A DNA stretch of 56,045 nt, from assembly GCA_021791515.1 (NCBI GenBank), contig JAJYWK010000006.1:1-56045 (forward strand). Direction: 5' to 3'. Made by a program: the position numbers and the translations under genes. Shown here one piece after another: positions 2,755-52,067 of the stretch. A model generated the notes under the pieces. The model saw nothing but the letters and a program-made list of their open reading frames with translations, was not told the DNA's origin and ran no database searches. Source of the DNA: a bacterium. GTDB taxonomy: Bacteria; Patescibacteriota; Doudnabacteria; UBA920. Position 1 is the stretch's first letter, and every line of letters begins with the position of its first letter.

Positions 2755-3486
2755 CTATATCGTGCTCCAAAAATAATTAAGCATAATATTCATTGTTTCA
2801 AAAATATCCGCACTTTCTATTACTAACCCTAGAGAGTCGTCGCCTTCTTGCGTAATAAAAGCTACTTTGCCGTTATATGCAAACATTTCATTTTTAAATG
2901 GAAAATTTTGTGCGGGTATTAGTTTGGTCTGGCGGAGCGCAAATTTATCTTTTGATTTCAAATCCTGGTAAAAAGGAATATCAGGAGCAATTACTCTAAC
3001 GTGGTTGCCTCTTTTTATTCTTCTGTCCACATATTCTCCGCCCCAGTAGCCCATTATTTTTTCGTCCGGCAATTTTGTGGATAGCACTTCTATATAATCG
3101 GCGCGTTTGGATAGCATATCTTCATAGATTTCTTTTATGCCCTCAATGCCTTTGTATATTCTGACTGACGGCTTCTTCCCGGCGTGGCTTTGAATGGACA
3201 ACAATTGCCCCATAATATTATGTAAAATATTTTCTTTTTGTCTTATCAGCGGGAAAATATTCTGTGGGTCTTCCGCAATATAGATTTTACGTTTGCCTTT
3301 TAAAATGGTTTTTATTAGCCCTTTTTCTTTTAGGCCGTCTATAAGTTCATAAACCGTAGCCCTTTTTAAGTGGGAACCGTTAACCAGCTCCTGCATGGTC
3401 GCGGGGCCGGTTTGGAGCCCGGCCAAATATAAAGCTGACTCTTTTTCACTTAATCCGATTTTTTGAAGGTTTTGTTCTAAATTCAT
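2755..3486 (-). CDS. TrmB-like HTH transcriptional regulator (paralog 1 of 5)
   Basis: The N-terminal winged HTH LGLSEKESALYLAGLQTGPATMQELV...RATVYELIDGLKEKGLI is shared with ORFs 5938-6672, 8276-9040, 31833-32627 and 38447-39190. Confidence 0.7.
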   Translation of the reverse strand: MNLEQNLQKIGLSEKESALYLAGLQTGPATMQELVNGSHLKRATVYELIDGLKEKGLIKTILKGKRKIYIAEDPQNIFPLIRQKENILHNIMGQLLSIQSHAGKKPSVRIYKGIEGIKEIYEDMLSKRADYIEVLSTKLPDEKIMGYWGGEYVDRRIKRGNHVRVIAPDIPFYQDLKSKDKFALRQTKLIPAQNFPFKNEMFAYNGKVAFITQEGDDSLGLVIESADIFETMNIMLNYFWSTI

Positions 3487-3974: not shown

Positions 3975-5903
3975 TTATAAAGTCTTTTGTTTAATCTTCT
4001 CTTCAAAACTCTCCAGTACGTCGCCGACCAAAATTTTCACGTTGGTTTTTAATTTAATGCCGAATTCTTCGCCGGTATTTACGTTCTTGCTGGCCACTTT
4101 GCTTTGTTGAAGTTCCAAAATATCCCCGCGGCCGAGTTCCGCTCCAGCGCGCCAAACCGAAATGTGGCTGTTTCTTTTTAGCTCCCCTTCTTCCACTTTA
4201 CCGCCCACTATCATTTCGCCTTTTTCCGTACGGAAAATGGCCAGGACTTTGGCTTTGCCCAACGAAATTTTTTCCGTTTCCGGAGTGAACATCTTAATTA
4301 CCGCGGAAGTAATGTCTTCCAGTAATTCATAAATAACATCGTAAGAATCAATTACCACTTTTTTTTGCTTGGCCAAATTAACGGCTTTGGGATTAATTTT
4401 TGCCCTAAAGCCAATAACCGAAGCTTTGGAGTTTGAAGCCATTAAAACATCGGATTCGTTTATTTCTCCCACGCCTTCGCTTAAAATGTTAATTCTAACT
4501 TCATCATTTTTTAATTTAGCAATGCTCTGCTTAATGGCTTCCAAAGAGCCGGCCACGTCTGCCTTTAAAATTAAATTCAATGTTTTATTTTCCAAGTCGC
4601 CCATAATTGCCTGTTTGCTCACCAAACGATGGCTTTGATTTTTACGCTGGCTTACAAGAGCAATGTCTTTGGCCATATCTAAAGTTTCTACCACCTGCAA
4701 AATGTCGCCGGCTTGGGGCACTTCGGAAAATCCCGATATCTGCGCCGGCGTGGAAGGCATAGCTTCTTTTAATTTGCGCCCGGTTTCATCTTCCAAAGAG
4801 CGGATGCGGCCAAAAGCCGCGCCAGCCGCAATAATATCGCCCGGCCTAAGCGTGCCGTTTTGTATTACCACTGTGGCCGTGGCGCCTTTGCCCTGGGTCA
4901 TTTTGCTTTCAATAATTGTGCCAATTGTCTGGCCTTGGGGGTTGGCGCGCAGGTTTTCCATTTCCGCGGTAAGCAGAATCATTTCTAACAAATTATCTAT
5001 TCCTTTGTTTTGTTTGGCGGAAATTTCGCAGGCAATGATTTTACCTCCCCACTCTTCAGTTAAAACTCCTTGGCCGGCCAGTTCCTGTTTAACTTTAATT
5101 ACGTTGGCCTCGGGCTTATCTACCTTGTTTATGGCCACAATCATTGGCGTGCTGGTGAATTTGGCACGGTTGATTACTTCCAGGGTCTGCGGCCTTACGC
5201 CGTCGTCCGCGGCCACCACCAAAACAATAATGTCCGTAACATTGGCTCCCCGCGCGCGCATTTCACTAAAGGCTTCGTGGCCAGGGGTGTCCAAAAATGT
5301 GATGGTTTTGCCGTTCTTTTTTACCGTGTAAGCGCCAATATGCTGGGTGATGCCACCGCTTTCGCCTTCGGCAACTTTGGTTTTGCGAATGGTATCAAGC
5401 AGAGTGGTTTTACCATGGTCAACATGGCCCATAATTGTCACAATCGGCGGACGGAGTTTTAAGTTTTCCTCTTTTTCCGCGCTCAAAACTTCCTGCAGGA
5501 AACCCAGGCCAAATTCTTTTTGACTCTGGTCGGCTTCGGTGGAAACATCAAAGTTTAAATCCTGCGCTACAATACTAGCAGTGTCAAAATCCACCTCTTC
5601 GTTAATAGTGGCCATTACGCCGTTTTGTATTAAGCTCTTAATGACATCGGTTACAGGCAGGCCGAGCAGGGCCGCAAAGTCGCGCACTTTTATAAACGAG
5701 GGCAGTTTAACTTTCTTTTTTTCTACCGGTTCGGCCGGCTTGGCCGCAACGGGTTTTACAGTCAATGCTTCGGTAATTTTTTTGGCCAGGAAGTTGTCGA
5801 TTTTATTCGCCCTGGGCGAAATAAAAAAACCTTTCTCGCGGGCGCGGGAGCGGAGTTCCTGGACGGACATATTCAGTTCGGACGAGAGGGAAGAAAGATT
5901 CAT
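3975..5903 (-). CDS. infB: translation initiation factor IF-2
   Basis: 642-aa ORF with GTPase motifs [17 protein letters not shown] and NKVD, plus the IF-2 C-terminal domains. Confidence 0.95.
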
Positions 5904-9954: not shown

Positions 9955-10004
9955 AACCGGTAAGTGTTCGGCGGCAAGGAGGCGCCAAGGACATCTTACC
10001 GGTT
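9955..10004 (+). repeat. conserved 50-nt hairpin, copy B
   Basis: aaccggtaag-tgttcggcggcaaggaggcgccaaggacat-cttaccggtt followed by taattttg. See copy A at 7568-7617. Confidence 0.8.
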
Positions 10005-10010
10005 TAATTT

Positions 10011-10072
10011 TGTCATTCCGAACTTGTTTCGGAATCCATTAAATGGGTCCTGAAATAAATTCAGGACGACAC
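10011..10072. repeat. tgtcat...gaca double-hairpin palindromic element (MITE-like family)
   Basis: tgtc-attccgaa-cttg-tttcggaat-ccattaaatgg-gtcctgaa-ataaa-ttcaggac-gaca. Relatives lie at 19709-19769, 22043-22145, 26432-26529, 28487-28601 and 45897-45940. Confidence 0.7.
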
Positions 10073-12539: not shown

Positions 12540-14061
12540 GAAATCAACTTTGGATGATAAACTAAAAATCGGGCAGTTTATTGCGGAAGTTAGGGAACTT
12601 AAGGGTTTTACTCAAAGCCAGTTTGCCAAAGCACTTAAAACTTCGCAGTCGGCCGTAGCCAGAATGGAAAGCGGCCAACAGAATTTAACCACCGAAATGC
12701 TGGCAAAAATCAGCGGCGCGCTAAACCAGGAAATTATTACTTTGGCCGACCGGTCGGTGAATTTTAAAATAGAAGGCGGGCGCAAGCTTTCAGGCAAGGT
12801 TTCTGTTAATTCTTCCAAGAACGCCGCTGTGGCTTTGTTATGCGCAAGCCTTTTAAATAAAGGCAAAACTGTATTGAAAAATGTGCCTAAAATAGAGGAG
12901 GTTAATCGGGTAATTGAAGTTTTGACAAGCCTGGGCGTGCAGGTAAAATGGCAGGAAAATAATGTGGAAATTCAACCGCCCAAAACAATCAGTATTAAAA
13001 ATATCAATAAAGAAGCGGCGGTTAAAACCAGAAGCGTGCTAATGCTTTTGGGGCCTTTGGTGCATTTGTTGCCTCAATTTAATTTGCCGCTGGCCGGGGG
13101 CTGTAAATTAGGCGCCCGCACGGTTCGCCCGCATTTGTTCGCTTTGGAAGGCTTGGGGGTAAAGATAAAAACCCATCATGACCATTATGAAGTTGCCGCT
13201 CATAAGTTAAATACATCCGAAGTTGTGCTGTATGAAACCGGAGACACGGTCACGGAAAATGTTTTAATGGCCGCGGCCAGAATTAACGGCCCAACAGCTA
13301 TTAAATTGGCTTCGGCCAACTATATGGTGCAGGATTTGTGCCATTTTCTGCAGGTGCTTGGCATTAAAATAGAAGGCATTGGCACGCCCACGCTAAAAGT
13401 TTACGGCAGAAGCCAAATTAACAAGCGCGCGGTCTATAATTTAAGCGAAGATCCAATAGAGGCCATGCTGTTTTTGTCTTTGGCCGCCACGACGAATTCT
13501 TCCATTATAATTGAGCGCTGTCCCATAGACTTTTTGCAGTTGGAATTGTTAAAGCTGGAAAAAATGGGGCTAAAATTTAAAATTTTAAAGCGGTACAAAA
13601 GTGAAAATGGTTTTACTGCTTTGGCAGATATTCAAACTTTTGAGTCCCGCCTTACAGCCTTGGAAGAAAAACTTCATCCCCTGCCTTCGGCATTTGGCAT
13701 AAATATAGATAATTTGCCGTTTTTTGTGCCCGTGGCCACTCAGGCCAAAGGCGTGAGTCTGGTTCAGGACTGGGTATATGAAAATCGCGCGGTTTATTAT
13801 ATGGAATTAAATAAACTGCGGGCGAATATTATTTTGGCTGATCCGCACCGGGTGTACGTGGAAGGAAAAAGTGATTTGCGCGGAGCGGAAATTATTTGTC
13901 CCCCTGCTTTGCGGCCAGCCGCGATAATTCTGATTGCCATGCTGGCGGCCAAAGGCACTTCTATCCTCCGCAATGTTTATTCCATTAATCGCGGGTACGA
14001 AAATTTGGTAAATAGGCTTAATCAATTAGGGGCTAAAATAGAAATTAACCATGGACTTTAG
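12538..14061 (+). CDS. murA: XRE-type HTH domain fused to UDP-N-acetylglucosamine 1-carboxyvinyltransferase
   Basis: Residues 1-70 are an XRE HTH (GFTQSQFAKALKTSQSAVARMESGQQNLT). The remainder is MurA-like: SSKNAAVALLCASLL, the active-site region LAGGCKLGARTVRPH, and the C-terminal RGYENLVNRLNQLGAKI. Confidence 0.8.
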   Translation: MKSTLDDKLKIGQFIAEVRELKGFTQSQFAKALKTSQSAVARMESGQQNLTTEMLAKISGALNQEIITLADRSVNFKIEGGRKLSGKVSVNSSKNAAVALLCASLLNKGKTVLKNVPKIEEVNRVIEVLTSLGVQVKWQENNVEIQPPKTISIKNINKEAAVKTRSVLMLLGPLVHLLPQFNLPLAGGCKLGARTVRPHLFALEGLGVKIKTHHDHYEVAAHKLNTSEVVLYETGDTVTENVLMAAARINGPTAIKLASANYMVQDLCHFLQVLGIKIEGIGTPTLKVYGRSQINKRAVYNLSEDPIEAMLFLSLAATTNSSIIIERCPIDFLQLELLKLEKMGLKFKILKRYKSENGFTALADIQTFESRLTALEEKLHPLPSAFGINIDNLPFFVPVATQAKGVSLVQDWVYENRAVYYMELNKLRANIILADPHRVYVEGKSDLRGAEIICPPALRPAAIILIAMLAAKGTSILRNVYSINRGYENLVNRLNQLGAKIEINHGL

Positions 14062-15095: not shown

Positions 15096-15318
15096 TGGTG
15101 GACCTGGGGGGAATCGAACCCCCGCCTCGGCAATAGCGCCCCAGCAGCAAATTCGCTATGCGAGTTGCTACGGGGTAAAAATGCCGCAGTAATATTTACC
15201 CCGTTACTTTTGGTGGACTCACCGGGAATCGGACCCGGGCCTCGGCAATGCGAATGCCGCGTAATACCACTTTACTATGAGCCCAACAAAAGTTACGGGG
15301 CCACTTTACTACAGGCCC
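15096..15318 (-). tRNA. interrupted tRNA-Ala gene (outer gene; inserts at 15139-15179 and 15195-15300)
   Basis: The acceptor halves gggcctg (15312-15318) and caggtcc+a+cca (15096-15106) include a G3:U70 pair. Removing the two CCCC...GGGGTAAA-type inserts gives D arm gtaa-agtggta-ttac, anticodon stem cggca/tgccg, loop ttCGCtat (8 nt), and T arm ggggg-ttcgatt-ccccc. Confidence 0.6.
15211..15284 (-). tRNA. tRNA-Ala(CGC), intact, nested inside the D-loop insert of the outer tRNA-Ala
   Basis: gggctca-ta-gtaa-agtggta-ttac-g-cggca-ttCGCat-tgccg-aggc-ccggg-tccgatt-cccgg-tgagtcc-a-cca, with G3:U70 present. Confidence 0.85.
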
Positions 15319-15993: not shown

Positions 15994-17409
15994 TCACCTA
16001 GCCTCTCCTTTGAAAGGAGAGGAATTTTTTTGATTTGTTTCTGCGGCAATGAGGCCAAGGAGTATCCAAAGTAACATTTGAGTTTGCTGGAGGGTATAAA
16101 AGTAGTGGTCGAATTGCATGAGGACGAGAAAACAAGTAAATAAGCTGATAAGCAATAAGAGGTAAATAGAAAAATCATCCTTGAATTTATAGTATATAGC
16201 TTTTAGTTGGTACAAAAATATCCAGAGCAAAATTAAAGCAAATGGGATGCCGAGTTCAGCCGCCGCGATAATAAAATAGTTGTGCGGTGGCTGTTTTTCC
16301 CATGGCATTAAGGTTTTATTGGAGACCTGTTCCATATGAAGCAGGCCCTCCCCTGCTCCAACGCCAAATAGAGGATGTTGCTCGGCCATTTTTAGTCCCA
16401 TTTGATCATAAAACTTTCTGTCGATAGTAGATTGGTCTGAAAATGTTGCGCGGGTTAAAAGGAAGGGGCGGAAAATGGCAAAGCTGATTAAGATTGACAT
16501 CGCCAAAACCGAAATTGCGAGCCCCGATGATAGTCGGGGCGAAGCAATCTGGTTCGTTGATGAGATTGTTTCGCTGCCCTCACTTACGCTCGGGCCCCTC
16601 GCAATTTCCAATTTGCGATACTTCATCGTACCAAAAAATATAACCAGCCCAACCCCCAAAGCCAAGTATGCTCCACGTGAAAATGCCACAGTTAGTCCTA
16701 AAATATTGAGGAAAATAAGAAAGGAATAGGCTATTTTGGCCTTTTTTTGATTAGAAATCATTAGTAAATAAGCGGCAATAAGCACTCCGGTGACCAAGAA
16801 AGCAGAAAACACGTTAGGGTGAGGAAACGTCCCATAACCACGAATAAAAGTTGTTCCATTTGAAACAATCTTTGCGACTCCAAGCATATTTGGCGCAAGA
16901 TGCGACTCCCCTAGCCTATAAAGTCCCAGAGATGATTGTTTGGCAAATTGGGCCAAAGCAATAATTGATTGAATTCCACAGAACCACGCAAAAATCTTAA
17001 AAAACCAAGTTTTTAAATCAAATTTGCTAAATGCCAGATACGCTGTTCCATATGCAACAATAATAAATTCAAGGAATTTTATAAAATTCCATATATTTAA
17101 GCCAGAAATTGAGTTTTTTGCAAAGAAAAGCGCTAAGATAAGCCAAAATATTAATATCCACAATCTTTTATCCTTAATCCTTGACCAAAAAAGTGTAAAA
17201 TTAAACCATAAAATAAAGAGAAAGGCAAAAAATAATAAAATATCGCTTAAATATAAGGAAAAGCTTGTAAAATCAGAATAATCACCTGTTAGATAGCTTG
17301 AAGCCGTCAAAAAGACGTGTCTTATTGGAAAAAATAGCGATAACAAAAACAAAAAGGTAAAAACTTTAACCCAAATCTCTGAATTGAACTTTTTAAGAAC
17401 ATTTATCAT
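15994..17409 (-). CDS. O-antigen ligase/polymerase (Wzy_C) family membrane protein
   Basis: 471-aa polytopic ORF with AFSRGAYLALGVGLVIFF and a periplasmic-loop pattern typical of the O-antigen ligase family. The 3' end overlaps the hairpin cctctcctt-tga-aaggagagg. Confidence 0.65.
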   Translation of the reverse strand: MINVLKKFNSEIWVKVFTFLFLLSLFFPIRHVFLTASSYLTGDYSDFTSFSLYLSDILLFFAFLFILWFNFTLFWSRIKDKRLWILIFWLILALFFAKNSISGLNIWNFIKFLEFIIVAYGTAYLAFSKFDLKTWFFKIFAWFCGIQSIIALAQFAKQSSLGLYRLGESHLAPNMLGVAKIVSNGTTFIRGYGTFPHPNVFSAFLVTGVLIAAYLLMISNQKKAKIAYSFLIFLNILGLTVAFSRGAYLALGVGLVIFFGTMKYRKLEIARGPSVSEGSETISSTNQIASPRLSSGLAISVLAMSILISFAIFRPFLLTRATFSDQSTIDRKFYDQMGLKMAEQHPLFGVGAGEGLLHMEQVSNKTLMPWEKQPPHNYFIIAAAELGIPFALILLWIFLYQLKAIYYKFKDDFSIYLLLLISLFTCFLVLMQFDHYFYTLQQTQMLLWILLGLIAAETNQKNSSPFKGEAR

Positions 17410-17458: not shown

Positions 17459-17682
17459 GCCCTCGCCCCGGTAGCAATCCGCCTTCGGCGGACGTTACGG
17501 GGTAAATAGCTCAACTTGCCCCGTCACATATGTTGCTTTCGTAGCTCAATGGATAGAGCAAATCCGTCCTAAGGATGAGATGTAGGTTCGATTCCTACCG
17601 AGAGCACCATATGTGACGGGGTGGATTAGAGCAGGTCCGTCCTAAGGACAAGATGGGGGTCCGATTCCCTCCGAGGGCACCA
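17459..17682 (+). tRNA. interrupted tRNA-Arg(CCU) gene (outer gene; inserts at 17466-17506 and 17515-17621)
   Basis: gccctcg[ins]ta-gctc-aa[ins]tggatta-gagc-a-ggtcc-gtCCTaa-ggaca-agat-ggggg-tccgatt-ccctc-cgagggc-a-cca. This is a full cloverleaf after removal of the two inserts. Confidence 0.65.
17535..17609 (+). tRNA. tRNA-Arg(CCU), intact, nested inside the D-loop insert of the outer tRNA-Arg
   Basis: gctttcg-ta-gctc-aatggata-gagc-a-aatcc-gtCCTaa-ggatg-agat-gtagg-ttcgatt-cctac-cgagagc-a-cca. Confidence 0.85.
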
Positions 17683-18389: not shown

Positions 18390-18720
18390 GGTCGGGATGC
18401 CCCAGTAGCATAACCTTCGGTTAGCTACGGGGTAAACAGGGAATTGAACCCTGTCTTCATCCGCCTTAGGCGGACTTCGGCGGACAGGCGCACCTTTACC
18501 CCGCACCAATTTTTTACAAATGTTTGCTTTTGGTCGGGATGCAGGGAATCGAACCCTGTCTCCACGCACCCGAAGCGTGTGTACTACCGGTATACTACAT
18601 CCCGGTCAAAAGAAAACAGTTATAATTTTTTAAGATAATAATTGGTGCGGGGCGTGGCGCGCGTACTACCGGTATATTTACCCCGTAGTCAGCTTGCTGT
18701 ACCACTGGGGCTACATCCCG
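18389..18720 (-). tRNA. interrupted tRNA-Pro(CGG) gene (outer gene; four inserts: 18400-18436, 18458-18486, 18495-18652, 18677-18710)
   Basis: After removal of the inserts the minus strand reads cgggatg-ta-gtat-accggta-gtac-g-cgcgc-caCGGgt-gcgcc-aaga-caggg-ttcaatt-ccctg-catcccg-a-cca. That is 74 nt, the same length and acceptor/D arm as the nested gene. Confidence 0.6.
18531..18604 (-). tRNA. tRNA-Pro(CGG), intact, nested inside the anticodon-loop insert of the outer tRNA-Pro
   Basis: cgggatg-ta-gtat-accggta-gtac-a-cacgc-ttCGGgt-gcgtg-gaga-caggg-ttcgatt-ccctg-catcccg-a-cca. Confidence 0.85.
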
Positions 18721-18921: not shown

Positions 18922-19719
18922 ATGGAAAAGCAGATTGTAATCAACGATAACTTAATTTCCTACAGTCAAACCGGCGAAGGGGAGCGGGCAGTGATTTTTT
19001 TGCACGGCTGGCGGAGTAATAAAGAAGTTTGGAACCAGGTAATACAGAGAATTAGAGAATTAGAGAATGAGAGAATTAGGATTTATTCCATCGATCTTCC
19101 CGGATTTGGTGGTTCATCGGCGCCTAAAACAGCTTGGTGTGTGGGGGATTACGCGGAAATTGTAAAAGGCTATATAGAAAAGTTGGAATTGAAAAATGTT
19201 ATAATCGTGGGTCATTCTTTTGGGGGAAGGATCGGCATCAAGTTAGCCGCGAACCCTTACCCGGCCTCCGGCCACCCTCTCCCAGAGGGAGAGGGAAAAT
19301 TGAAGGGGCTGATTTTGGTGGATGCGGCTGGGTTTGCCATGAATGCAAATAAAAAAACCATTATATCGGCGGCGGCAAAATTGACTAAGCCATTTTTTAA
19401 GCCAAAATTTATGCAGGGTTTGCGTAAGAAAATTTATCAAAAAATCGGCGCGGAAGACTATTTGGCCACTCCGGAATTGCAACAAACTTATGTAAAAGTT
19501 ATAAGTGAAGATTTGACTGAAGATTTAAAAAAAATAACTTTGCCAACTTTAATTATCACGGGTGAAAATGACAAAGATACGCCGATAGAGTTTGGTCGTA
19601 AAATGAATTCCTTAATTCCGAATTCCGAATTCCAAATTCTTAAAAATGCCGGGCATTATAGCTTTATTGATCAGCCGGAGGAGTTTGTAAATAATATTTT
19701 AGAATTTATGTCATCCTGA
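18922..19719 (+). CDS. alpha/beta-fold hydrolase
   Basis: HGWRSN..., nucleophile elbow VGHSFGG, C-terminal NAGHYSFIDQPEEF. It contains a hairpin-encoded insert at 19275-19295, and its stop codon lies inside the repeat at 19709-19769. Confidence 0.75.
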   Translation: MEKQIVINDNLISYSQTGEGERAVIFLHGWRSNKEVWNQVIQRIRELENERIRIYSIDLPGFGGSSAPKTAWCVGDYAEIVKGYIEKLELKNVIIVGHSFGGRIGIKLAANPYPASGHPLPEGEGKLKGLILVDAAGFAMNANKKTIISAAAKLTKPFFKPKFMQGLRKKIYQKIGAEDYLATPELQQTYVKVISEDLTEDLKKITLPTLIITGENDKDTPIEFGRKMNSLIPNSEFQILKNAGHYSFIDQPEEFVNNILEFMSS

Positions 19720-19769
19720 ACTTGTTTCAGGATCCATAAAATAGATTCCGGATCAAGTCCGGAATGATA
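19709..19769. repeat. tgtcat...atga double-hairpin palindromic element
   Basis: tgtcatcctgaa-cttg-tttcaggat-ccataaaatagat-tccgga-tcaag-tccggaatgata. It shares a 25-nt identical core (caggatccataaaatagattccgga) with 26451-26475. Confidence 0.7.
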
Positions 19770-26431: not shown

Positions 26432-26529
26432 TGTCATCCTGAATTTATTTCAGGATCCATAAAATAGATTCCGGAACCCCAGTAGTAGAACCTTCGGTTC
26501 ACTACGGGGCAGGCAAGTCCGGAATGACA
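26432..26529. repeat. tgtcat...atgaca element with a nested CCCC...GGGG hairpin (26477-26509)
   Basis: The backbone matches 19709-19769, but the tccgga/tccgga hairpin loop is occupied by ccccagtagtagaaccttcggttcactacgggg. Confidence 0.75.
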
Positions 26530-29751: not shown

Positions 29752-30042
29752 TGGAGGTTTTACATTGTTTCAGAGGGGCTTGTCCCGCCTCTTTCTCAAA
29801 AAGGGCGGTGTTTGACGGCTCTGGTTTTATTGTATATTATAAAAATATCAAACAACTTTTTACCCCCAAGTTTAACAGGGGACATTAACTAGAAACATAA
29901 GCCCAGTAGAGCTTCTTTGAGTGCCTAAAGACTCTGGTTTCACAAAGAAAAGCCGCTGGGAAGTGAGCATAAGATTATTAAGATTTGATTTTGCGATTCG
30001 CCTTTAGGCGCAAAGAGCAAACTCAAAGAAATTCACTTCGGT

Positions 30043-51522: not shown

Positions 51523-51856
51523 TTTAGAATCTATTTTAAAAATAATTTGTAGGCGAAATTTGAGGATTTTGAGCAGATTGGATCTTAACAAATTTTGACG
51601 TTTAGCCAAAGCTAAGCGGAAGAATTTTTCAGACCAAGATGCCAAAATACCGCAAATTGCAGCCCGAAGGATTTTTAAAATAGGTTCTTAGGCGCAATCT
51701 AATACCCCCGTCTTACTTGAATAGTAGGGCGGGGCTTGTTATTTGGTTTGAAAAATGCTAAAATTTTTGAGCCGAGCAACCAGCTCGAGTGGTGCAATTG
51801 GCCTCAGTTGAATCATTGCTTCGCAATATTCAACGGGGCAAGCGGTCTTGGCATCT

Positions 51857-51943
51857 GCCTTGGTGGCGGAATTGGTATACGCACTAGGTTTAGGACCTAG
51901 CGAGGGTAACCTCTTGAGAGTTCGAGTCTCTCCCAAGGCACCA
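51857..51943 (+). tRNA. tRNA-Leu(UAG), type II
   Basis: gccttgg-tg-gcg-gaattggtata-cgc-a-ctagg-ttTAGga-cctag-(variable arm)-gagag-ttcgagt-ctctc-ccaaggc-a-cca. It is flanked by the 10-bp inverted repeat acggggcaag / cttgccccgt. Confidence 0.85.
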
Positions 51944-52067
51944 GGCAATGGTTTACGTATTTGGTTCAACCTTGCCCCGTAGGGACGCCTGGCGTCTCCT
52001 TCGGGGTCCCATCTCGAGCACCATAAAAAGAGAAAGATTTTTAATCGCTCATCAGAGGTAAAATTAT

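What the first reader, a model, noticed from the sequence alone, without database searches (positions are those of the whole stretch)
26432..26529. A discrete hairpin element family (CCCC-A-GYRGC ... GCYAC-GGGG, often +TAAA) that inserts into loops of other structures
The same module recurs in both orientations. Its form is four C:G pairs, a bulged A or G on the 5' strand, a GTAG-like word, a short stem-loop, and usually a TAAA tail. It occurs in tRNA genes at 15139-15179, 17466-17506, 18400-18436 and 18677-18710. Here it sits inside the loop of another repeat: 26477-26509 interrupts the tccgga/tccgga hairpin, which is uninterrupted in the sister copy at 19709-19769. Mini-versions occur at 16522-16539 and at about 29859-29881 (tttacccc...gggg). 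Larger versions carry whole tRNAs as cargo. Nesting in either orientation points to DNA-level insertion by a hairpin-recognising activity. The GTAG word next to a palindrome is reminiscent of REP elements, which are mobilised by RAYT/IS200-like Y1 transposases. No such gene lies in this window.
Basis: partly seen in the sequence, partly recalled or inferred. Interest (0 to 1): 0.65.

Follow-up and report, generated by a model that had tools for sequence, protein, structure and literature searches.

The report
Tiny mobile DNA hairpins in CPR bacterium
A 34-54-base DNA hairpin with fixed CCCC/GGGG ends has copied itself into broken tRNA genes, other hairpins and even essential protein genes of an ultra-small (CPR) bacterium, so it behaves as a miniature selfish mobile element whose mobilising enzyme is still unknown.

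Summary
It also finds two diverged copies around tRNA-Leu at 51802-52006. The genome (1.17 Mb, Doudnabacteria-like CPR) has about 22 copies. The two "mini-versions" do not score.

The unit is CCCC, a bulged purine, GTAG-N-A, an inner stem-loop, N-CTAC-GGGG and a 4-nt tail (TAAA or CAAG/CAGG). It inserts exactly, with no target duplication.

The insertion acts on DNA and is not spliced from RNA:
- Both orientations occur within one tRNA gene.
- The genome has no EndA or RtcB.
- Copies sit in frame, without stops, in EF-G, PurF, TrmD and other proteins.
- The orthologues I could read in related genomes have empty sites.
- Copy number ranges from 0 to 22 among 41 relatives.

Sister subfamilies share the termini. 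One of them (GTTAAAT arms) exists both without cargo and carrying whole tRNA genes.

The REP/RAYT idea is only partly supported. The genome has two IS200 TnpA genes and one RAYT-like gene, but three hairpin-rich relatives have no Y1 gene, and hairpin and Y1 counts do not correlate.

Earlier agents of this scan had already noted the nested tRNAs on this window. I found no published description.

The parts
26477..26513 (+). GTAG-type hairpin element (33-nt hairpin plus CAGG tail) inserted in the loop of the second hairpin of a host repeat
   Evidence: R1 45.3 bits. It is a 37-nt insertion relative to two empty sister repeats.
26433..26529 (+). Host two-hairpin repeat (GTCATCCTGAA..TTCAGGAT ... 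ATTCCGGA..TCCGGAATGAC), filled copy
   Evidence: About seven copies in the genome; alignment.
19710..19769 (+). Sister copy of the host repeat, empty site
10000..10070 (-). Third copy of the host repeat, empty site
15139..15179 (+). GTAG-type hairpin plus TAAA in the anticodon arm of a broken tRNA-Ala shell (antisense to the shell)
   Evidence: R1 45.8 bits; sequence. G005 holds a copy between near-identical flanks of a tRNA anticodon-arm-like fragment (L110).
15195..15300 (-). Cargo element: TTTA + CCCCG...CGGGG arms enclosing the intact tRNA-Ala(CGC) at 15211-15284
17466..17506 (+). GTAG-type hairpin plus TAAA between positions 7 and 8 of the outer tRNA-Arg(CCU)
   Evidence: R1 43.3 bits. 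Removing it together with 17519-17625 restores a 76-nt tRNA-Arg that ARAGORN calls.
17519..17625 (+). Cargo element (arms CCCCGTCACATATG / CATATGTGACGGGG plus tail) in the D loop of the outer tRNA-Arg, holding the intact tRNA-Arg(CCU) at 17535-17609
   Evidence: The cargo tRNA is 96% identical to the tRNA-Arg of G008, G002 and G004 and 95% to that of G015. The shell's 3' half matches the other allele, seen in G003.
18400..18436 (+). GTAG-type hairpin plus TAAA at the T-stem/acceptor junction of the outer tRNA-Pro(CGG) (antisense to the shell)
   Evidence: R1 46.6 bits. Its flanks are identical to the uninterrupted inner tRNA, so the insertion is exact.
18495..18652 (-). Cargo element (TTTA + CCCCGCACCAATT...AATTGGTGCGGGG) in the anticodon of the outer tRNA-Pro, holding the intact tRNA-Pro(CGG) at 18531-18604
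18677..18710 (-). GTAG-type hairpin plus TAAA after position 10 of the outer tRNA-Pro (sense orientation)
   Evidence: R1 33.4 bits. Flanks GATGTAG^TATACCG are identical to the inner tRNA.
51802..51842 (+). Diverged hairpin (CCTCAGTTGAAT...ATTCAACGGGG plus CAAG) in the D loop of an outer tRNA-Leu shell
   Evidence: R1 21.8 bits, E 0.0036; sequence.
51971..52006 (-). Diverged hairpin (CTTG | CCCCGTAGGGACGCC...CTTCGGGG) in the T arm of the same tRNA-Leu shell, downstream of the intact tRNA-Leu(TAG) at 51857-51943
   Evidence: R1 17.6 bits, E 0.035; sequence.

Best explanation
The module is a miniature, non-autonomous, palindromic mobile DNA element.

One unit is a single hairpin plus a 4-nt tail: CCCC, a bulged purine, GTAG-N, an invariant A, a variable inner stem-loop, N-CTAC, GGGG, and then TAAA or CAAG/CAGG/CGAG. 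The total is 34-48 nt. Sister subfamilies have GTTAAAT or GTTAGAA arms.

Shown here:
- It is inserted into DNA exactly, without target duplication or target loss, and in either orientation.
- It stays in the transcript. In protein genes it survives only where the net insertion keeps the frame open and free of stops, and there it is translated as a 12-19-residue loop. In tRNA genes it breaks the gene.
- Broken tRNA shells persist because elements built to the same plan carry a complete tRNA of the same anticodon as cargo. For the GTTAAAT subfamily the cargo-free and cargo-carrying forms also share arm sequence.

Inferred, not shown:
- The element probably moves as a folded single strand.
- It is cut at the foot of the hairpin and 4 nt beyond it.
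- It is pasted at purine^pyrimidine steps that are exposed in loops and junctions of structured DNA (tRNA genes, other hairpin repeats) or in permissive coding loops.
- A trans-acting, hairpin-recognising enzyme does this. The genome's Y1 (HUH) transposases are candidates, but comparative data do not tie them to the family, so the enzyme is best treated as unknown.
For: Family and structure.

Exact insertion without duplication:
- The outer tRNA-Pro flanks GATGTAG^TATACCG and TTCCCTG^CATCCCG are identical to the inner tRNA.
- The host repeat is filled at one copy and empty at two.
- Both orientations occur within one tRNA-Pro shell.

No splicing machinery: there is no EndA and no RtcB in a genome estimated 97.7% complete.

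In-frame coding copies:
- EF-G: C62:30210-30267.
- PurF: C15:30660-30717.
- TrmD: C32:1911-1952.
- A 6PGDH-like protein, a YbaK-like editing protein and ParB.
- Hairpin-plus-tail lengths are 54, 54, 42, 36 and 48 nt in five of them. The sixth is a net 39 nt judged by open frame only. About 18 non-coding copies measure 34-46 nt and none is a multiple of 3.

Empty sites in relatives:
- EF-G has 59 residues between the RGITI and DTPGH motifs here. The 27 relatives without an insert have 30-41, mostly 40. G005 and G018 hold a different hairpin at the same site.
- PurF is 17-19 residues longer than 9 in-genus orthologues.
- TrmD is 7-14 residues longer in that segment than the 5 orthologues my motif could read.

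Other support:
- Copy number is 0-22 in 41 related genomes, and 15 of 150 genomes sampled across the phylum have mostly single copies.
- In relatives the copies again lie in tRNA fragments, D loops and host-repeat loops.
- Shells decay: the Pro shell has A33 and an extra arm, and the Ala shell's anticodon loop is 2 nt too long.
- The cargo tRNA-Arg allele is shared, at 96%, with G008, where it lies in a different shell, at a different position and between different arms.
Against: - No transposition event, excision product or population polymorphism was observed.
- No mobilising enzyme is identified, and the association with Y1 is weak.
- There is no significant strand bias relative to GC skew (16:8, p = 0.15), unlike typical IS200/IS605 elements.
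- Target preference is loose: a purine before and a pyrimidine after the junction in 8 of 9 reconstructed sites, read by eye. The single-strand mechanism therefore remains inference.
- The outer tRNA-Arg(CCU) is a perfect tRNA once both inserts are removed. That is also what a spliced gene would look like.
Confidence: 0.72

Rival explanations
1. REP/REPIN-type system. On this view the hairpins are cognate repeats of a domesticated RAYT or IS200-type Y1 transposase encoded in the same genome, which cuts and re-joins them as single-stranded hairpins.
For: The genome has one RAYT-like gene (C35, next to tRNA-Pro(TGG)) and two IS200 tnpA genes. The end hairpins of the IS200 copies also have a CCCCGG...CCGGGG foot. 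The elements lack target duplications and contain a GTAG word, as REPs do. Presence/absence across genomes gives an odds ratio of 4.1 (p = 0.07).
Against: G028, G037 (100% complete) and G038 have 15, 6 and 19 copies and no PF01797 match, while four genomes with 4-6 Y1 genes have no copy. Spearman rho is 0.16. The RAYT-like gene is flanked by a different hairpin, GAAGAGGTGTCCCCTCTTC. GTAG is paired inside the stem. Copies lie inside genes. No REPIN doublets were seen. Strand bias is not significant.
Confidence: 0.15
2. RNA-level introns. On this view the hairpins, and the tRNA-holding versions, are removed from precursor tRNAs by an unknown bacterial endonuclease/ligase pair, as in archaeal bulge-helix-bulge splicing, so the outer tRNAs are functional.
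For: Boundaries are exact, and the outer tRNA-Arg(CCU) is restored to a perfect cloverleaf when both inserts are removed. Differences between shell and cargo are largely compensatory. ARAGORN did not find tRNA-Gly(UCC), tRNA-Arg(UCU) or tRNA-Arg(ACG) in uninterrupted form.
Against: There is no EndA and no RtcB. Both orientations occur in one transcript and would give different RNA structures. Every shell whose anticodon I could read (Arg, both Pro, probably Ala) matches that of its intact inner tRNA, so the shell adds no decoding capacity. The Pro and Ala shells carry defects (A33, oversized loops). Many copies sit in truncated tRNA fragments. The same element in coding genes keeps the reading frame, so it is read through and not removed.
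Confidence: 0.05
3. The hairpins are not independently mobile. On this view they travel only as parts of tRNA-replacement cassettes exchanged between relatives by homologous recombination, and the non-tRNA copies are convergent or old relics.
For: Most copies, here and in relatives, lie in or beside tRNA shells: 12 of 20 sampled loci in relatives have an intact tRNA within the fetched +/-600 nt. Nested tRNA alleles look horizontally exchanged.
Against: High-scoring copies sit in TrmD, a 6PGDH-like gene, ParB, the typA leader, upstream of 16S, and in loops of an unrelated host repeat. Relatives or sister repeats have empty sites there. Two copies of the GTTAAAT type differing at about 3 of 50 nt lie in EF-G and PurF.
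Confidence: 0.06

Closest known systems
Rickettsia palindromic elements (RPE)
   Same: Both are palindromic repeats in a small genome that insert in frame into unrelated, often essential, protein genes and add a peptide loop, as the MITE review PMC10969869 describes for RPEs. From my own knowledge, RPEs also occur in non-coding DNA and have no known transposase.
   Different: The review gives RPEs as about 150 bp, whereas these are 34-54 nt single hairpins with fixed CCCC/GGGG feet and a 4-nt tail. The sequences and the phylum are unrelated. These elements concentrate in tRNA genes and have tRNA-carrying relatives. That last point is not described for RPEs in what I could read.
REP/REPIN elements with RAYT (TnpA-REP) transposases
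   Same: Both are short imperfect hairpins with a GTAG word and lack target duplications. A Y1 gene of the RAYT-like type is present in the genome.
   Different: GTAG is inside the stem. Copies occur inside genes and tRNA genes. No doublets were seen. The RAYT-like gene is not flanked by them, and hairpin-rich relatives lack any Y1 gene.
IS200/IS605-derived miniature elements (PATEs), which transpose as single-stranded hairpins
   Same: Insertion is exact with no duplication. A conserved tetranucleotide lies at one end next to a hairpin with an extrahelical base. Loops and junctions of structured DNA are favoured. IS200 copies with CCCCGG-foot hairpins are present in the genome.
   Different: These have one hairpin instead of distinct left and right ends. 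There is no conserved target tetranucleotide, only R^Y for the GTAG type and CTTG^ for the TGAA-tailed type. Strand bias is not significant, and there is no dependence on tnpA among relatives.
Mobile bulge-helix-bulge tRNA introns and split tRNAs of Archaea (Thermoproteales; cited in PMC10714607)
   Same: Both are short structured inserts at many non-canonical tRNA positions that appear to have spread between tRNA genes.
   Different: The organism is a bacterium without EndA or RtcB. Both orientations occur, shells decay, and the same element is translated in proteins.
Integron attC sites
   Same: Both are folded single-strand hairpins with extrahelical bases. The GTTAAAT/ATTTAAC arms of one subfamily fit the GTTRRRY/RYYYAAC core, as far as I recall that consensus.
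   Different: There is no integron integrase above the family cut-off in five genomes, no cassette arrays, and the GTAG subfamily does not fit the core.

Membership tests
REP/REPIN-RAYT | Conserved GTAG-type tetranucleotide 5' of (outside) the hairpin stem | tested here: not met
   GTAG pairs with CTAC inside the stem in all 20 aligned copies.
REP/REPIN-RAYT | Extragenic location | tested here: not met
   Copies lie in frame in TrmD, EF-G, PurF, a 6PGDH-like gene and a YbaK-like gene, and inside tRNA genes.
REP/REPIN-RAYT | Cognate RAYT gene flanked by the repeats and co-occurring with them | tested here: not met
   The RAYT-like gene at C35 is flanked by a different hairpin. G028, G037 and G038 have 15, 6 and 19 copies and no PF01797 match; rho = 0.16.
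IS200/IS605-derived miniature element | Insertion without target duplication | tested here: met
   Flanks are exact at the tRNA-Pro, host-repeat and PurF sites; EF-G also fits, apart from 3 nt of further indels.
IS200/IS605-derived miniature element | Insertion 3' of a fixed tetra- or pentanucleotide target | tested here: inconclusive
   The GTAG type shows only a purine^pyrimidine step. TGAA-tailed elements follow CTTG in tRNA D loops, in the G008 T loop and in EF-G, but CCCG and CACG also occur.
IS200/IS605-derived miniature element | Strand bias with respect to replication | tested here: inconclusive
   16 of 24 copies lie on the G-rich strand, p = 0.15.
IS200/IS605-derived miniature element | Distinct left and right subterminal hairpins matching an autonomous element | tested here: not met
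   The element has a single hairpin. The IS200 ends (GGAAACCCCGGAC......CCCGGGGAGGAGGTCAT) share only the CCCC foot with it.
Rickettsia palindromic elements | Palindromic repeat inserted in frame in unrelated protein genes, with orthologues lacking it | tested here: met
   EF-G, PurF and TrmD are filled here and empty in the relatives read.
Rickettsia palindromic elements | Sequence homology to, and size of, the ten RPE families | not tested
   No RPE sequences were compared. The size (34-54 nt against about 150 bp) and the host phylum differ.
Archaeal-type spliced tRNA intron | Splicing endonuclease (EndA) and RtcB-type ligase in the genome | tested here: not met
   PF01974 and PF01139 have no match in a genome estimated 97.7% complete, while the controls do match.
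Archaeal-type spliced tRNA intron | One defined RNA structure at both splice sites | tested here: not met
   Sense and antisense orientations occur in the same tRNA-Pro shell.
Archaeal-type spliced tRNA intron | Spliced mature RNA | not testable with these tools
Integron attC | Integron integrase present and cassette arrays | tested here: not met
   TIGR02249 matches score 97 bits or less against a cut-off of 265 in five genomes. No arrays were seen.
Classical MITE (TIR plus TSD, DDE transposase) | Target-site duplication flanking the terminal inverted repeats | tested here: not met
   The GTAG type shows no duplication at reconstructed sites. Only the GTTAGA subfamily shows TCAA on both sides; I did not follow that up.

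The most novel reading that the evidence does not exclude
These hairpins, together with their tRNA-carrying relatives, could be a previously unrecognised class of single-hairpin transposon in Patescibacteria. It would be mobilised by an enzyme that is not a Y1/HUH transposase and is not yet identified. It would be able both to overwrite single-copy tRNA genes with horizontally spreading tRNA alleles and to add loops to essential proteins such as EF-G.
Probability: 0.3. Interest if true: 0.8.

Novelty: new variant of a known kind. Interest (0 to 1): 0.62.

Why it matters
CPR/Patescibacteria have genomes of about 1 Mb that are thought to be streamlined. This one nevertheless tolerates a family of about 40-nt selfish hairpins that break tRNA genes and insert peptide loops into EF-G, PurF and TrmD.

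If the picture holds, it has four consequences:
- It offers a concrete source for some of the many unexplained insertions seen in CPR proteins and RNA genes.
- It shows a route by which tRNA alleles replace each other between species.
- It warns annotators that tRNA fragments and extra protein loops in these genomes can be mobile-element scars.
- It defines a clean biochemical substrate (the hairpin plus a 4-nt tail) with which to look for the responsible enzyme, which may be a new kind of hairpin-specific DNA transposase.

Tried and rejected
- **In-silico excision.** I removed all CCCC..GGGG candidates, singly and in pairs and triples, and ran ARAGORN on 7013 constructs. Only the outer tRNA-Arg(CCU) was restored. 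The His, Trp and Val hits were trimming artefacts of intact genes. Most shells are therefore not simply restorable, and this approach did not recover the missing Gly(UCC), Arg(UCU) or Arg(ACG).
- **Strand bias against GC skew.** 16:8, not significant.
- **Y1 transposase association.** Not significant.
- **Other enzyme candidates.** TnpB (PF07282) is absent from five hairpin-rich genomes. There is no integron integrase. Serine recombinases are present in four of the five genomes tested but absent from G038. None of these explains the family.
- **Autonomous element with the same termini.** A search out to 6 kb for CCCC-footed inverted repeats enclosing an ORF found only an unrelated serine-recombinase element on C17 and one more tRNA-Val cargo element on C21.
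- **Rfam.** Only tRNAs reach gathering score in the window.
- **Literature.** Searches for tRNA introns or palindromic elements in CPR/Patescibacteria found no description.
- **Mini-versions.** The copies at 16522 and 29859 were rejected as members.

Full report
**What is there**

The window is contig C70 of a 1.17-Mb, 70-contig genome estimated 97.7% complete. Its genes are bacterial: murein synthesis genes and a bacterial 16S rRNA. Its closest named relatives are Candidatus Doudnabacteria and other CPR/Patescibacteria MAGs.

At 26477-26509 the sequence reads CCCC-A-GTAGTAGAACCTTCGGTTCACTAC-GGGG, followed by CAGG. The same architecture stands at 15139, 17466, 18400 and 18681.

I aligned 20 genome copies and built covariance model R1 from them. 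The unit has these parts:
- four C:G pairs;
- a bulged purine;
- GTAG plus one covarying pair (C-G x12, U-A x4, A-U x3);
- an invariant unpaired A;
- a variable inner stem-loop, often with a TTCG or GCAA loop;
- a 4-nt tail, which is TAAA in 12 of 20 copies and otherwise CAGG, CGAG, CAAG, TAGA or CGCG.

It also returns two diverged copies flanking tRNA-Leu(TAG) at 51802-51842 and 51971-52006.

Genome-wide the family is clearly non-random. There are 22 R1 hits. There are 233 generic CCCC..GGGG hairpins against 35-48 in shuffled sequence. Perfect hairpins of 9 bp or more have a CCCC foot 23 times and the mirror GGGG foot once.

**The insertion is exact and acts on DNA**

The outer tRNA-Pro(CGG) shell can be compared base by base with the intact tRNA-Pro nested inside it. 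The shell reads GATGTAG|hairpin+TAAA|TATACCG and TTCCCTG|TTTA+hairpin|CATCCCG. The inner gene reads GATGTAGTATACCG and TTCCCTGCATCCCG.

So the inserted unit is the hairpin plus 4 nt. Nothing is duplicated and nothing is lost. The two copies in that one gene are in opposite orientations. One orientation would give an RNA with a 3' tail and a 5'-strand bulge, and the other the mirror image. A single RNA-processing activity is therefore unlikely to handle both, whereas for DNA the two are equivalent.

The finding's own site behaves the same way. Three copies of a two-hairpin host repeat align over their whole length. Only 26433-26529 carries the 37-nt insert, which sits in the loop of the TCCGGA hairpin. 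That host repeat has about seven copies in the genome. A second copy, on C17, carries a different mini-hairpin (TCCCGCC..GGCGGG plus CAGG) in the same loop.

**New evidence: the element is translated in essential proteins**

Several copies lie inside long open frames, which Pfam identifies:

| Protein | Location |
|---|---|
| EF-G, GTP-binding domain | C62:30210-30267 |
| Amidophosphoribosyltransferase PurF | C15:30660-30717 |
| TrmD | C32:1911-1952 |
| 6-phosphogluconate-dehydrogenase-like protein | C18:33733-33769 |
| YbaK-type editing protein | C31:14057-14092 |
| ParB, N-terminal region | C62:42506-42553 |

In five of these the hairpin-plus-tail length is 54, 54, 42, 36 or 48 nt. The sixth is a net 39 nt, judged by open frame only. 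All are free of stops. About 18 copies in non-coding DNA measure 34-46 nt and none is a multiple of three. An RNA intron would face no such constraint. An element that stays in the mRNA would.

Orthologues confirm filled and empty sites:
- **EF-G.** Between the RGITI and DTPGH motifs this genome has 59 residues. The 27 relatives without an insert have 30-41, mostly 40. Only G005 and G018 carry an insert, and it is a different hairpin (CCCGTTAGAAG..., 69 nt) at the same place.
- **PurF.** The protein is 17-19 residues longer than in nine in-genus orthologues.
- **TrmD.** The segment is 7-14 residues longer than in the five orthologues my motif could read.

In EF-G the empty antisense site is GTGCTTG^GTATC. 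The filled site reads CTTG|CCCCGTTAAAT...GGGG TGAA|GTATC.

**Relation to the tRNA-carrying versions**

The larger elements that enclose whole tRNA genes share the CCCCG...CGGGG ends and a 4-nt tail, but not the GTAG core.

The GTTAAAT subfamily makes the link. The same arms occur in three forms:
- around tRNA-Val (C21:106-399) and tRNA-Pro(GGG) (C62);
- without cargo in EF-G and PurF;
- as CCCC-R-GTTAAA...TTTAAC-GGGG-TAAA hairpins, three of them in one intergenic region (C19:35066-35373).

TGAA-tailed elements repeatedly sit after CTTG: in tRNA D loops here, in a T loop in G008, and in EF-G.

For tRNA-Arg(CCU), the promoter-proximal shell carries one allele, whose 3' half is identical to that of G003. 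The nested gene carries a second allele that is 96% identical to the tRNA-Arg of G008, G002 and G004. In G008 that allele is itself nested, in a different shell, at a different position and between different arms. This fits cargo that spreads between species and replaces resident genes.

The shells look like dying genes. The Pro shell has A33 and an extra arm. The Ala shell has an oversized anticodon loop. Many copies sit in truncated tRNA fragments. Only the Arg shell is restorable by in-silico excision.

**Distribution**

Among 41 related genomes, copies range from 0 to 22. The count varies widely within the genus, and 13 of 18 congeners have at least one copy. In a sample of 150 genomes drawn evenly across the phylum, only 15 have hits, mostly single.

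In 20 loci fetched from relatives the contexts repeat:
- tRNA D loops, for example GGCGGAA|hairpin+CAAG|CTGGCAGA in a tRNA-Leu shell;
- T/acceptor junctions;
- in G005, near-identical anticodon-arm flanks to the Ala-shell site of this window;
- loops of the same host repeat.

Flanks close into a stem of 6 bp or more at 6 of 25 sites, against 6.4% of random positions (p = 0.004). Loops are favoured but are not the only context.

**What moves it**

It finds two 142-residue IS200 TnpA genes (C7 and C56), whose own end hairpins have CCCCGG feet, and one RAYT-like gene beside tRNA-Pro(UGG) on C35.

The comparative test does not support dependence on them:
- G028, G037 and G038 have 15, 6 and 19 hairpins and no PF01797 match.
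- G010, G015, G017 and G021 have 4-6 Y1 genes and no hairpin.
- Spearman rho is 0.16 and the Fisher test gives p = 0.07.
- The RAYT-like gene is flanked by a different hairpin.
- Strand bias is weak (16:8).
- TnpB, integron integrase and serine recombinases do not explain the pattern either.
- I found no autonomous element with the same termini.

The single-strand, hairpin-guided cut-and-paste mechanism is therefore an inference from anatomy. That anatomy comprises the exact ends, the bulged base, the fixed tail, the lack of duplication, and the purine^pyrimidine junctions in exposed loops.

**RNA splicing as an alternative**

Most evidence is against it:
- There is no EndA and no RtcB.
- Both orientations occur in one gene.
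- The shells decay.
- Shell and cargo have the same anticodon wherever I could read both.
- The reading frame is preserved in coding genes.

Two things remain in its favour. The Arg shell is intact after excision. Three isoacceptors are absent from the uninterrupted set: Gly-UCC, Arg-UCU and Arg-ACG. They may simply lie in assembly gaps. I give this alternative about 5%.

**Comparison with known systems and novelty**

The closest analogue in behaviour is the Rickettsia palindromic element, a palindromic repeat inserted in frame into many unrelated protein genes (PMC10969869). The closest in presumed mechanism are REP/RAYT and miniature IS200/IS605 derivatives. Defining features of each family fail when tested (see the membership table).

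Literature searches found no description of such elements, or of hairpin-interrupted or nested tRNA genes, in CPR bacteria.

Earlier agents of this scan had already reported the nested tRNA-Ala, -Arg and -Pro on this same window, and similar cases elsewhere in this genome, and read them as hairpin-borne tRNA replacement. My results agree with that reading and add:
- the family model;
- the coding-gene insertions with empty orthologous sites;
- the distribution across relatives;
- the negative Y1 association;
- the absence of splicing enzymes.

I file it as a new variant of a known kind: a miniature palindromic mobile element.

Noticed in passing
window 51780-52025: A fourth nested locus in the window. 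The intact tRNA-Leu(TAG) at 51857-51943 sits inside an outer tRNA-Leu shell (5' GCTCGAGTGGTGCAATTGG..., 3' ...TCCCATCTCGAGCACCA) that also holds two diverged hairpins.
   Followed up: partly
window 10000-10070(-), 19710-19769, 26433-26529; also C15:24441, C17:1502, C28:4648, C31:10919: A two-hairpin intergenic repeat family (GTCATCCTGAA..TTCAGGAT, then ATTCCGGA-tcaag-TCCGGAATGAC) with about seven copies. Two copies carry different mini-hairpins in the second loop, and relatives carry GTAG hairpins in either loop.
   Followed up: partly
G000 C17:3121-4746 and flanks 3230-3310 / 4790-4870: A 540-residue large serine recombinase lies between perfect inverted repeats of about 70 bp, next to a tRNA 3'-end fragment. 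All five large serine recombinases of the genome (C15, C17, C18, C22, C31) lie roughly 1-2 kb from a tRNA gene or fragment.
   Followed up: no
G000 C7:8946-9580 and C56:4196-4830: Two IS200-type elements. Both ends begin GGAAACC(C/T)CGG and form hairpins. The right end finishes CCCGGGGAGGAGGTCAT.
   Followed up: partly
G000 C19:35066-35373: Three CCCC-R-GTTAAA...TTTAAC-GGGG-TAAA hairpins in the same orientation, plus one other CCCC..GGGG hairpin, within 310 nt of an intergenic region near a contig end.
   Followed up: no
G000 C62:14438, 15170, 15772, 32429, 35356 and about 9 other loci: A separate CCCCTCTCC..GGAGAGGGG hairpin family followed by (T/C)(C/A)(A/G)GGGGAGAG. The copy at C62:32429 has two small hairpins nested in its loop, so nesting of hairpins in loops is general in this genome.
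   Followed up: no
G000 C2:1423, C7:5506, C17:1329, C18:22297, C19:23705, C47:18956, C65:8393: An AT-rich CCCCGTTAGA...TCTAACGGGG subfamily of 66-100 nt, often flanked by TCAA on both sides. This could be a target duplication or an IS608-like shared cleavage tetranucleotide.
   Followed up: no
G005 and G018, EF-G locus (L030, L031): A different 63-nt hairpin (CCCGTTAGAAGTCAGACGCC...), giving a net 69-nt insert, occupies the same EF-G site as the window genome's element and adds 23 residues.
   Followed up: partly
G000 whole genome: ARAGORN finds 46 intact tRNAs but no tRNA-Gly(UCC), tRNA-Arg(UCU) or tRNA-Arg(ACG). There is a tRNA-Ile(UAU).
   Followed up: partly
G000 C32:13741-15499: The 16S rRNA gene spans 1759 nt against a 1533-position model, so it carries insertions. 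A GTAG hairpin lies about 280 nt upstream, at 13425-13465.
   Followed up: no
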